Source of the DNA: Granulosicoccaceae bacterium
GTDB taxonomy: Bacteria > Pseudomonadota > Gammaproteobacteria > Granulosicoccales > Granulosicoccaceae
NCBI GenBank assembly: GCA_965222695.1
Contig: OZ244967.1
Coordinates: forward strand, 5,082,303-5,114,302
Direction: 5' to 3'
DNA: 32,000 nucleotides
Part shown: piece by piece, positions 15,248 through 16,960 of the stretch
Layout: every line of letters starts with the position of its first letter
Numbering within the stretch: the stretch's first letter is position 1
Notes under the pieces: model-generated
Told to the model about the DNA's origin: nothing
Databases searched by the model: none
What the model saw: the letters and a program-made list of their open reading frames with translations, nothing else
Position numbers and translations under genes: made by a program

Positions 15248-15581
15248 GCCCTGTCTTTAAGAGCCTGTTCAAAATCTCTGCGCCTACTGCGAATTCGCTG
15301 AGTTTGGCCAGATTTCCTCCTGATTTTATGCAGCACATCCGTATGCTTTACCCCTAACGGGGCTTGCGTTCAAAACGCTCCAGGCGTTTTAGTCGTTGCG
15401 TAGAGTCACTATGCGCCTCAAATCAGAAGAAAATCTGACTCAAATCAGCGCATTCTCGCGACGACGCAGAGATTTTGAACTAATGGAATGGTTCGCCCCT
15501 CCTCTCAAAGTCATTATAGTAATGACTGGGTATTTAAGACGGCTACTGTGTGAGCCAAACAACGAGATGAAGGAGCGAACC

Positions 15582-16631
15582 ATGAAACATGATACCGAAA
15601 AACACCCGTTAAAAGTAATCGCTATCGATTTGGCGAAGAACAGCTTTCAGGTTTTTGCCGCTGATCAGTCGGGGCGCAAAGTGATGAATCGAAAAATGAA
15701 CCGGCAGTTATTGAAACAATGGATGGTCAAACAACAGCCCTGTCTGGTGGCCATGGAGGCTTGTGGCAGCGCCCATTATTGGGGTCGTTTATTTCAGTCT
15801 TACGGGCACAAGGTAAAGCTGATAGCCCCACAGTTTGTCAAGCCCTATGTCAAGTCGAACAAAAGCGATGCGGCAGATGCTGAGGCCATTAGCGAAGCGG
15901 TGCAACGTCCCGGCATGCGTTTTGTCGCGATCAAGGAGGTGGCCCAGCAGGATATACAAGCCATACACCGATTGCGTAGTCTGGCGGTTGGGCAACGTAC
16001 TGCGCAAGTGAATCAGATTCGCGGATTGCTCCAGGAGTATGGTCTTGTCCTGGCCCGAGGACGGGCAACAGTGATTAACCGGTTGCCCGAGGTCTTGGAG
16101 GATGCCGACAACGGCTTGAGTGACTTGTTTCGCGAGCAACTCCAACGGATGTATGAAGAGCTTTTGCACAGTGACCAGCGGGTGACTGATTACGACGACA
16201 CACTGCAGAGGTTGGCTAAGCAGGATGAGCAGGCAAAGCGGCTGATGACGATCCCAGGGGTCGGCCCACTGGTGGCAACGGCACTGCTGGCGGGTATCGG
16301 CGATATCAAGTCGTTTCGCAATGGCCGGGAACTGGGGGCCTGGTTGGGTCTGGTGCCACGACAGCACTCAACAGGGGGCAAGCCAACGTTGTTGGGTATC
16401 AGCAAGCGAGGAGACGTTTACCTGCGAACCTTGCTGATACACGGTGCTCGTTCTGTGGTTGTGCATGTCGACCAATGTCGCACGAACACCCAGCGATGGT
16501 GCCAGGCGCTCAAACAGCGCAGTCACATGAACGTCGCTATTGTGGCGATGGCCAATAAAATAGCACGCGTCGCCTATGCGTTGTTAAAAAACGGCGAAGA
16601 CTACTCCACCGCAACTCTGGCCAGGGTGTGA
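15582..16631 (+). CDS. IS110-family (DEDD-type) transposase/recombinase
   Basis: AAGGAG Shine-Dalgarno 6 nt before the ATG at 15582. Family hallmarks IAIDLAKNSFQVF, AMEACGSAHYW, PQFVKPYVKSNKSDAADAEAI, IPGVGPLVATALLAGIGD, GLVPRQHSTGGK, ISKRGDVYLR. The track ORF start at 15396 reads through MITE DNA and is spurious. Confidence 0.95.
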   Translation: MKHDTEKHPLKVIAIDLAKNSFQVFAADQSGRKVMNRKMNRQLLKQWMVKQQPCLVAMEACGSAHYWGRLFQSYGHKVKLIAPQFVKPYVKSNKSDAADAEAISEAVQRPGMRFVAIKEVAQQDIQAIHRLRSLAVGQRTAQVNQIRGLLQEYGLVLARGRATVINRLPEVLEDADNGLSDLFREQLQRMYEELLHSDQRVTDYDDTLQRLAKQDEQAKRLMTIPGVGPLVATALLAGIGDIKSFRNGRELGAWLGLVPRQHSTGGKPTLLGISKRGDVYLRTLLIHGARSVVVHVDQCRTNTQRWCQALKQRSHMNVAIVAMANKIARVAYALLKNGEDYSTATLARV

Positions 16632-16960
16632 TAAAAGGGCGAGTCGTTCATGCGTTGCGCTGGAATAACACAAGGTACTGATATTTAGGTTAAGAGTCCG
16701 TGAAGCTAAGCCTCATCCAATTGCAAAGAGTGAAATCACAGTGATGGCATAAAGGGTTATAAACCGCGCACCTGGGAGCCTGATAGAGCCTATGGTCACC
16801 ACGAGGTAGACCGCTGAACTGATGAGGCCAGGGGCGAGCGAATTCCATCAGGGTACGACAGAGCGCGACAAGCGTTCTCGATTCGATACCGGATATATGG
16901 CTGCAATAACTTCTTTATGAGTACTACATTTTATTCTTGCATAACGGGGCGAACCATATA
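16632..16960 (+). ncRNA. candidate IS-encoded guide RNA (bridge/seek RNA type) in the right non-coding end
   Basis: A 329-bp non-coding tail with no ORF. It contains TAGAGCCT (16784-16791), complementary to the 8 bp right of the insertion point. ATTCCAT (16842-16848) is complementary to the IS left tip 15483-15489. TATATGG (16894-16900) is complementary to the right tip 16954-16960. There is also a degenerate internal copy of the end sequence (16829-16851). The exact RNA ends are unknown. Confidence 0.45.

What the first reader, a model, noticed from the sequence alone, without database searches (positions are those of the whole stretch)
15481..16960. Base-precise, sequence-specific IS insertion into the terminal inverted repeat of a MITE, with empty target sites in the same window
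The right TIR of MITE copy B reads ...CGCAGAGATTTTGAAC (to 15480), then 1480 bp of unrelated DNA, then AGGCTCTAAG (from 16961). Uninterrupted TIRs read TTGAAC|AGGCTC at 30926-30937. On the opposite strand they read GAGCCT|GTTCAA at 15261-15272, 30778-30789 and 31852-31863. This fixes both IS ends with no ambiguity and shows there is no target-site duplication. The 12-bp IRs are subterminal, 7 nt from the left tip and 3 nt from the right tip. That arrangement, plus insertion into a repeated hairpin-forming sequence, is characteristic of IS1111-group members, which are known to target REP elements, integron attC sites and Tn21-family IRs. Copy A (termini CTTAAGCAGG) lacks the 12-bp target, so only one MITE subfamily is a substrate. 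This amounts to a mobile element specialised on another mobile element.
Basis: seen in the sequence. Interest (0 to 1): 0.6.

Follow-up and report, generated by a model that had tools for sequence, protein, structure and literature searches.

The report
RNA-guided IS targeting a MITE tip
A 1480-bp insertion sequence of the IS1111 type has inserted 11 times in this genome, always at the same base six bp inside the end of a small repeated transposon (MITE). Its own non-coding RNA carries the two short guides that spell out that site, so this is a clear but expected example of bridge/seek-RNA-guided transposition.

Summary
Window 15481-16960 is a 1480-bp IS with 12-bp subterminal inverted repeats, 7 nt from the left tip and 3 nt from the right tip. 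It splits a MITE end at TTGAAC|AGGCTC without target duplication, and four empty sites lie at the stated coordinates.

The complete genome holds 11 full copies (at most 1 SNP apart). All sit in one orientation at the same position of MITE-type tips, and 88 identical 12-mers are unoccupied.

The transposase has the DEDD (PF01548) and PF02371 domains and a GLxPxxxxTG motif. Every IS1111 hallmark that could be tested is met.

The 329-bp tail encodes a bridge/seek RNA (16742-16905). A covariance model built only from 46 relatives hits it at E=3e-26. UAGAGCCU pairs with AGGCTCTA and UGAAC matches TGAAC. The homologous positions covary with the flanks in the relatives. The right guide reads two bases of the MITE's own TNA duplication, which explains a preference for A at +8 (9/11 occupied sites against 27/93 empty, p=0.001).

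One unusual point: in 48 of 50 family elements the first IS base equals the first right-flank base. Here the IS has T and the target has A.

Verdict: a new member of a known kind.

The parts
15481..16960 (+). Complete IS1111-type insertion sequence, 1480 bp. It is one of 11 full copies in the genome.
   Evidence: Ends are fixed by the empty sites. The 11 copies differ by at most 1 SNP.
15481..15487 (+). Left terminal extension TAATGGA (7 nt). Its first base T is the 'core' position X.
   Evidence: TAATGGr or CAATGGG is conserved in 49 relatives.
15488..15499 (+). Left subterminal inverted repeat ATGGTTCGCCCC.
   Evidence: It is the perfect complement of 16946-16957.
15582..16631 (+). Transposase gene, 349 aa, with GAAGGAG 6 nt upstream. 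It has the DEDD/RuvC-like domain and PF02371, and a GLVPRQHSTG motif.
   Evidence: Pfam PF01548 at 3.6e-17 and PF02371 at 5.8e-25. NCBIfam NF033542 'IS110 family RNA-guided transposase' at 360.7 bits. It is a distant match to the IS621 and ISCro4 recombinases in the PDB.
16742..16905 (+). Bridge/seek RNA gene in the 3' non-coding region.
   Evidence: Covariance model R1, built from 46 relatives without the window, gives a single full-length hit of 75.4 bits at E=3e-26. Stems with 9-19 compensatory changes are seen.
16784..16791 (+). Right-target guide UAGAGCCU. It pairs with the top strand at AGGCTCTA (+1 to +8).
   Evidence: The homologous position in relatives is complementary to their own right flank, with a longest run of 7.4 nt against their own target and 3.5 nt against foreign targets.
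16815..16821 (+). Left-target guide UGAACUG. [quoted passage not shown] At X it carries U (the donor type), which mismatches the target A. At +2 it carries G.
   Evidence: Fixed-register identity to the element's own flank is 0.81-0.98, against 0.25-0.33 for foreign flanks at -5 to -1.
16842..16848 (+). Candidate right-donor guide AUUCCAU, complementary to left-end bases 3-9. It overlaps the 3' strand of stem P1 (CCAUCA).
   Evidence: Covariation with left-end base 7 is only partial, so this assignment is tentative.
16893..16898 (+). Left-donor guide AUAUAU, equal to the last 5 nt of the right end plus X.
   Evidence: The RNA hexamer is identical to the right-end tip plus X in 47 of 47 elements, over 6 different hexamers.
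16937..16942 (+). TTGCAT, a possible -35 box. With 16 nt of spacer and TA|TAAT formed across the abutted ends, it would make a junction promoter in the circular form.
   Evidence: Read from the sequence. No sigma-70-like promoter is found in the integrated IS. The promoter is inferred and was not tested.
16946..16957 (+). Right subterminal inverted repeat GGGGCGAACCAT, followed by the 3-nt tip ATA (16958-16960).
15261..15480 (+). MITE copy B, the main part, from the left tip GAGCCTGTTCAA to ...TTGAAC. The flanking duplication TAA lies at 15258-15260.
16961..16969 (+). The last 6 bp of MITE copy B (AGGCTC) plus its duplicated TAA (16967-16969).
   Evidence: The duplication reads TAA on both sides.
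30927..30939 (+). Empty, perfect 13-bp target TGAACAGGCTCTA at the right tip of MITE copy C.
12069..12296 (+). MITE copy A, a subfamily with tips ...CTTAAGCAG(G/A)TT. It matches the 13-bp target at only about 8 of 13 positions and carries no IS.

Best explanation
Window 15481-16960 is an active-looking member of the IS1111 group of the IS110 family. Its DEDD/serine-type recombinase works with a non-coding bridge (seek) RNA transcribed from the 3' tail of the element (16742-16905).

Two guides sit in one internal loop of that RNA. UAGAGCCU pairs with the top strand to the right of the crossover (AGGCTCTA). UGAAC(UG) pairs with the bottom strand to the left of the crossover (TGAAC). A second pair of segments matches the element's own right tip (AUAUAU) and left end (AUUCCAU).

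The 13-bp site TGAAC|AGGCTCTA exists in the genome only because it is the last 11 bp of a MITE terminal repeat plus 2 bp of the MITE's TNA duplication. The excised circle therefore integrates again and again 6 bp inside MITE tips, in one orientation and without duplication.

Three things are shown here: the anatomy, the 11-of-11 site and orientation specificity, and the guide-flank covariation across relatives. Three things are inferred from published work on ISEc11, ISPa11, ISKpn4 and IS621: that the RNA is made, that it binds the transposase, and that a circle with a junction promoter is the intermediate.
For: Ends and empty sites.

Genome-wide copies: 11 copies share identical junctions and one orientation, and 88 TTGAACAGGCTC sites are empty.

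Protein: the domains and the name 'IS110 family RNA-guided transposase', and the GLVPRQHSTG motif.

Family anatomy: it is conserved in 49 relatives.

Guides: they lie at the positions homologous to guides that match the flanks in relatives. The left-donor guide is identical to the right tip in 47 of 47 elements.

RNA: the structure shows compensatory changes. A model built without the window hits 16742-16905 at E=3e-26.

Occupancy falls with guide mismatches. It is 8 of about 36 perfect 13-mers, about 2 of about 90 one-mismatch sites, and 1 of about 230 two-mismatch sites. A at +8 occurs in 9 of 11 occupied sites against 27 of 93 empty sites, p=0.001.

Independent insertions: each IS-bearing MITE is closest to an empty MITE, not to another IS-bearing one.

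Literature: PMC11187229 and PMC11208160.
Against: There are no expression data and no read-level data.

A single-sequence fold of the tail is no more stable than shuffled sequence.

The left-target guide mismatches the target at the crossover base (U opposite T).

The candidate right-donor guide overlaps a predicted RNA-RNA stem (P1). That stem shows its own compensatory change in one relative, L042, so the donor-loop assignment is only partly secure.
Confidence: 0.9

Rival explanations
1. The transposase protein alone recognises the MITE end as a folded or hairpin DNA structure, or as a protein-binding motif. This was the pre-2024 view of IS1111 targeting of REP, attC and inverted repeats. 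Under it, the RNA-like matches are coincidental.
For: The MITE arms are long inverted repeats. Historically, IS1111 targets were described as potentially folded sequences.
Against: Three of the 11 copies sit in mini or solo tips that lack the MITE body. Guide positions covary with the flanks across 47 elements that have unrelated targets. Tip variants TAAAC and TAGAC keep the hairpin but break the left guide, and they carry no IS.
Confidence: 0.04
2. The 11 copies did not arise by 11 targeted insertions. Instead a single MITE+IS composite spread, either by MITE transposition or by segmental duplication.
For: Several left flanks are identical over 40 nt.
Against: The host MITEs belong to different size classes (58, 160 and 226/227 bp, plus truncated forms) and to different sequence subgroups. 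Each has its own duplication and unrelated outer flanks. In all four IS-bearing 160-bp copies compared, the nearest relative is an empty MITE. The IS also cuts the terminal repeat that the MITE would need in order to move.
Confidence: 0.02
3. The MITE tip is only a near-cognate, opportunistic target. The element is really tuned to TGAAC-T-GGCTCTA, with T at the crossover base as in its relatives. It lands in MITEs simply because they supply dozens of one-mismatch sites, so 'specialised on the MITE' overstates the case.
For: The left-target guide and the donor both carry T at X, while the MITE has A. In 48 of 50 family elements the two bases are equal. One copy has T on the right junction.
Against: The right-target guide has U at that position and so reads the MITE's A. 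Its 8 of 8 match includes 2 nt of the MITE duplication. Only two TTGAACTGGCTC sites exist in the genome. Both are outside MITEs and both are empty. All 11 insertions are in MITE-type tips.
Confidence: 0.1

Closest known systems
IS4321 / IS5075 (IS1111 family; Partridge & Hall 2003, cited in PMC11208160 and PMC11187229)
   Same: These are IS1111-type elements with subterminal inverted repeats. They insert at one position and in one orientation inside the terminal inverted repeat of another transposon. This is the same relationship of one mobile element targeting another.
   Different: Their target is the 38-bp inverted repeat of Tn21-family transposons on plasmids. Here the target is the tip of a chromosomal 160/226-bp MITE plus 2 nt of its TNA duplication. 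The best plasmid-borne relatives of this transposase share only about 50-52% identity. The paper itself could not be read here.
ISEc11, ISPa11, ISKpn4/ISPst6 (IS1111 family; seekRNA shown experimentally, PMC11187229)
   Same: They share the downstream non-coding region encoding a 70-100-nt RNA, with a top-strand match placed 5' of a bottom-strand match and the two matches overlapping at the insertion point. They also share the 7/3-nt terminal extensions, the 330-350-aa transposase and the junction promoter. ISPa11 likewise targets a genome-wide repeat (REP).
   Different: The guides and the target differ. The closest relatives found are at most 63% identical in protein. Here the two target guides disagree at the overlap base: one reads A and the other expects T.
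IS621 bridge RNA system (IS110 group; PMC11208160, PMC11208158)
   Same: An RNA with a target loop and a donor loop. Each loop carries one guide for the bottom strand on the left and one for the top strand on the right, and the core is included in the pairings. The recombinase is a DEDD plus serine-type enzyme.
   Different: In IS621 the RNA is upstream of the gene, the guide order is reversed, the core is a CT dinucleotide and the subterminal repeats are 2-3 bp. Here the RNA is downstream, the shared base is a single nucleotide, the repeats are 12 bp, and the nucleophile position reads Thr-Gly.

Membership tests
IS1111 group of the IS110 family | Transposase with an N-terminal DEDD/RuvC-like domain and a C-terminal PF02371 domain | tested here: met
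   PF01548 at 3.6e-17 and PF02371 at 5.8e-25. NF033542 at 360.7 bits against a cut-off of 140.
IS1111 group of the IS110 family | GL-P----S(t)G motif in the C-terminal domain, and a length of 330-350 aa (PMC11187229) | tested here: met
   The protein reads GLVPRQHSTG and is 349 aa. The Thr-Gly aligns with the Ser-Gly of ISCro4.
IS1111 group of the IS110 family | Subterminal inverted repeats of about 11-13 bp | tested here: met
   A 12-bp perfect repeat at 15488-15499 and 16946-16957.
IS1111 group of the IS110 family | Asymmetric terminal extensions, 7 nt on the left and 3 nt on the right | tested here: met
   The tips are fixed by four empty sites in the window and 88 in the genome.
IS1111 group of the IS110 family | Long non-coding region downstream of the transposase gene | tested here: met
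   329 bp (16632-16960) without an ORF of 60 aa or more on the + strand.
IS1111 group of the IS110 family | Site- and orientation-specific insertion without target duplication | tested here: met
   11 of 11 copies lie at TTGAAC|(A/T)GGCTC in one orientation, and the flanks join to give the empty site.
IS1111 group of the IS110 family | Circular intermediate with abutted ends that creates a junction promoter | not testable with these tools
   Predicted only: TTGCAT, 16 nt, then TA|TAAT.
IS1111 group of the IS110 family | Transposase clusters with IS1111 rather than IS110 in a phylogeny of ISfinder entries | not tested
The 49 relatives recovered all share the IS1111-type ends and tail.
seekRNA / bridge RNA of IS1111-type elements | An RNA in the downstream non-coding region with a top-strand match 5' of a bottom-strand match, the two overlapping at the insertion point | tested here: met
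   UAGAGCCU (16784-16791) comes before UGAACUG (16815-16821). They overlap at X and +2, with a mismatch at X in the second guide.
seekRNA / bridge RNA of IS1111-type elements | Guide positions covary with the targets of related elements | tested here: met
   across 47 elements.
seekRNA / bridge RNA of IS1111-type elements | Conserved secondary structure | tested here: met
   Stems show up to 19 compensatory changes. The model built from relatives hits the window at E=3e-26. No Rfam family matches.
seekRNA / bridge RNA of IS1111-type elements | The RNA is expressed, binds the transposase and is required for movement | not testable with these tools
   This needs RNA-seq or a Northern blot, co-purification and a transposition assay.
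MITE (the target element) | Small, non-coding and multicopy, with terminal inverted repeats and a target-site duplication | tested here: met
   About 98 intervals, with main size classes of 160 and 226 bp. The tips are GAGCCT...AGGCTC, with identical 3-bp TNA flanks in 18 of 21 copies. No autonomous partner was found in this genome.

The most novel reading that the evidence does not exclude
This element is a natural case in which the donor and the target differ at the single crossover ('core') base, and recombination still works repeatedly. The donor, the left-donor guide and the left-target guide all carry T. The MITE target and the right-target guide carry A. All 11 left junctions carry the donor base. 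Ten of 11 right junctions carry the target base. The only other mismatched relative, L064, shows the same polarity.

If a one-base staggered exchange left a heteroduplex that segregated at replication, about half of the copies should start with A. None does. This would mean that in this IS1111 clade both strands cross over 5' of that base, or that core identity is a guide-imposed habit rather than a chemical requirement. Either point is relevant to removing the core constraint in engineered bridge recombinases.
Probability: 0.3. Interest if true: 0.55.

Novelty: new member of a known kind. Interest (0 to 1): 0.36.

Why it matters
The case is a clean, internally controlled natural example of RNA-guided transposition. 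One genome holds 11 occupied sites and about 90 empty ones. Occupancy falls off as the number of mismatches to the two guides rises.

It shows a bridge/seek-RNA element that lives on the tips of another transposon, and that reads into that transposon's own target duplication. It also adds about 47 aligned relatives with matched guide-flank pairs, and a covariance model for an RNA that Rfam lacks.

The donor/target mismatch at the crossover base gives specialists a natural marker of crossover polarity.

It does not reveal a new kind of system.

Tried and rejected
- Rfam at gathering thresholds found nothing in the window.
- Single-sequence folds of the tail were no better than shuffled sequence. 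Structure emerged only from the alignment.
- I first took the upstream GAGCCUG (16776-16782) for a second guide or a 10-nt duplication. The alignment shows it is the conserved structural motif RRCCYG, which pairs with AGGC.
- A fixed-register test of the right-target guide failed for the C-type relatives because of a 1-nt register shift. A register-free test worked.
- The IS was not found in 40 related genomes. An exact 30-mer of its left end was not found in metagenome contigs. Its exact protein is not on record elsewhere. Sister-strain comparison was therefore not possible.
- A 1533-bp candidate autonomous partner of the MITE turned out to be an ompW gene between two MITE remnants.
- The common Klebsiella plasmid relative examined (L097) is not obviously IS4321/IS5075.
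- The Partridge & Hall 2003 paper is not held in the library.

Full report
**Observation.**
The sequence at the given coordinates reads exactly as described. The MITE arm ends at ...GAGATTTTGAAC (15480). A 1480-bp insert follows, running TAATGGA-ATGGTTCGCCCC ... GGGGCGAACCAT-ATA (15481-16960). The MITE then resumes with AGGCTC, followed by TAAG. The 12-bp inverted repeats are perfect and lie 7 nt and 3 nt from the tips. The uninterrupted 12-mer TTGAACAGGCTC occurs four times in the window at the stated places, against 0.01 expected by chance. Joining the flanks restores it, so nothing is duplicated.

The window lies in a complete 5.21-Mb genome.
- The genome holds 11 full copies that differ by at most one synonymous SNP (IS position 1106). 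It also holds two partial tandem copies.
- All 11 full copies lie at ...(G)AGATnTTGAAC | (A/T)GGCTC..., in the same orientation relative to the site and with no duplication.
- Eighty-eight further TTGAACAGGCTC sites are empty.

**The target element.**
The repeat is a genuine MITE.
- It forms about 98 intervals, with main size classes of 160 and 226 bp.
- Its tips are GAGCCTGTTCAA...TTGAACAGGCTC, with identical 3-bp TNA flanks in 18 of 21 two-tipped copies.
- The IS therefore sits 6 bp inside the MITE tip.
- No autonomous partner with these tips is present. The only candidate was an ompW gene between two remnants.
- MITE copies diverge to 84-100% identity, and a congeneric genome holds a 79% copy. 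The IS was not found in 40 related genomes. The MITE expansion is therefore older than the IS burst.
- The host MITEs are of several size classes. In all four IS-bearing 160-bp copies compared, the nearest relative is an empty MITE, not another IS-bearing one. The 11 copies are thus independent insertions, not a composite that spread.

**The element.**
- The ORF at 15582-16631 (349 aa) has the DEDD_Tnp_IS110 and Transposase_20 domains.
- It scores 360.7 bits on NCBIfam 'IS110 family RNA-guided transposase'.
- It carries GLVPRQHSTG, which is the GL-P----S(t)G motif described for IS1111 transposases in PMC11187229. The Thr-Gly aligns with the Ser-Gly of ISCro4 in the PDB.
- The defining IS1111 features are listed in PMC11187229. 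They are subterminal repeats of 11-13 bp, extensions of 7 and 3 bp, and a long downstream non-coding region. All are met.
- No sigma-70-like promoter is seen in the integrated copy. Abutting the ends would create TTGCAT-16 nt-TA|TAAT. This agrees with the junction promoter known for this family, but it is inferred only.

**How the site is chosen.**
[quoted passage not shown] I recovered 80 loci of relatives at 63% protein identity or less, and defined clean ends for 49 of them from their ATGG-type subterminal repeats.
- In these relatives, a segment about 162-175 nt from the right tip is complementary to the element's own right flank (-1 to +9).
- A segment about 137-146 nt from the right tip is identical to the last 5 nt of the left flank plus the next two bases.
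- In the alignment, the window's homologous segments are UAGAGCCU (16784-16791) and UGAACUG (16815-16821). The first is complementary to AGGCTCTA at +1 to +8. The second matches TGAAC at -5 to -1.

Controls:
- The left guide is identical to its own flank at 0.81-0.98 per position, against 0.25-0.33 for foreign flanks at -5 to -1.
- The right guide's longest complementary run averages 7.4 nt against its own target and 3.5 nt against foreign targets. It reaches 7 nt or more in 62% of own-target comparisons against 0.7% of foreign ones.
- A further hexamer (AUAUAU, 16893-16898) equals the last five bases of the right end plus the first base of the IS in 47 of 47 elements, across six hexamer variants. 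This is a donor guide.
- AUUCCAU (16842-16848) is complementary to left-end bases 3-9. It overlaps a predicted stem, so that assignment is tentative.

RNA structure:
- RNAalifold finds stems with up to 19 compensatory changes. They enclose the target loop (16767-16775 with 16828-16836) and the donor-side hairpin.
- A covariance model built from the 46 relatives alone gives one full-length hit in the window, at 16742-16905, 75.4 bits, E=3e-26.
- Rfam has no matching family.

**Consequences seen in the genome.**
The guide-specified 13-mer TGAAC|AGGCTCTA is expected 0.16 times by chance in this genome. It exists only as the MITE tip plus the first two bases of the TNA duplication.
- Occupancy is 8 of about 36 perfect sites, about 2 of about 90 one-mismatch sites, and 1 of about 230 two-mismatch sites.
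- A at +8 is present in 9 of 11 occupied sites but in only 27 of 93 empty ones (Fisher p=0.001).
- This explains why one MITE end type, usually followed by TAA, is hit 8 times and the other, usually followed by TTA, only once.
- Tip variants TAAAC and TAGAC, and the copy-A subfamily, carry no IS.
- Three insertions lie in mini or solo tips without a MITE body. This argues against hairpin recognition.

**An unusual detail.**
In 48 of 50 family elements the first base of the IS (T or C) equals the first base of the right flank. This is a one-base shared 'core', and in those elements it makes the ends ambiguous by one base.
- Here the IS has T and the MITE has A.
- The left-target guide and the left-donor guide keep T. 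The left-target guide equals the IS base in 47 of 47 elements. The right-target guide reads A.
- All 11 left junctions carry T. Ten right junctions carry A and one carries T. The copy with T lies in a MITE whose flanking duplication is also mutated, so that T may be a later mutation.
- The only other mismatched relative, L064, shows the same polarity.
- For IS621, pairing to a matching CT core on both strands is strongly preferred.
- The absence of any copy starting with A argues against a randomly segregating heteroduplex at this base. This is inference from 11 copies only.

**Comparison and verdict.**
This is a new, so far unnamed member of the IS1111 group. Its behaviour parallels IS4321/IS5075 (which target the terminal repeats of Tn21-family transposons) and ISPa11 (which targets REP). 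Its mechanism is that shown for ISEc11 and its relatives, and for IS621.

The scan's own notes on this window had already flagged the junction promoter, the guide-like tail and the MITE family. I reached the first two before reading those notes, and I tested all three here.

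Noticed in passing
G000:C1:3159221-3162644 (outside the window; loci L007, L012, L013): One IS copy is followed by two tandem partial copies, giving IS(1-1480) + [A + IS(510-1480)] x 2 and then GGCTCTAAG. 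Each junction reads CCATATA-A-GGGCAACG, so the 972-bp unit ends exactly one base past the IS right tip, with GG microhomology. The locus therefore carries three bridge-RNA genes. The internal breakpoint does not resemble the guide-specified target. It could be a recombinase side product, a microhomology duplication or an assembly artefact.
   Followed up: partly
G000:C1:4209941-4211420 (- strand; locus L002): This is the only copy whose right junction reads CCATATA|TGGCTC instead of AGGCTC. None of the roughly 70 empty MITE tips has T there. This MITE's duplication is also imperfect (TAT/TAA). The copy shares the rare A at IS position 1106 with the window copy.
   Followed up: partly
Loci L019-L091 (relatives): In 48 of 50 IS1111-type elements of this clade, the first IS base equals the first right-flank base, and the second right-flank base is almost always G. 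The RNA positions X-G (-A-U) in the left-target guide follow these bases, including the rare CA and CT cases (L045, L091, L061).
   Followed up: yes
window 5753-5902: A perfect GGCTCT hexanucleotide array of about 16 units lies inside a coding region. It contains the right half of the IS target (GGCTCT) but lacks TGAAC, and it carries no IS.
   Followed up: no
G000:C1:4765065-4766597 (locus L104): An ompW-family gene is bracketed by two MITE-like ends (GGGCCAGTTCAAAATCTCT... and its inverted partner) 1533 bp apart. The 3-bp flanks differ (TTA and TGA), so these are probably two remnants rather than a composite element.
   Followed up: partly
L097 (Klebsiella pneumoniae plasmid NZ_CP084847.1, 14736-18149): A relative with 50% protein identity, widespread on enterobacterial plasmids, sits inside a C39 peptidase gene. 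Its RNA segment CTTTGTTG matches its own left flank ...GCTTTGT plus T-G, following the same guide rule. Its tail appears to be cut short next to a Tn5403-type resolvase.
   Followed up: partly
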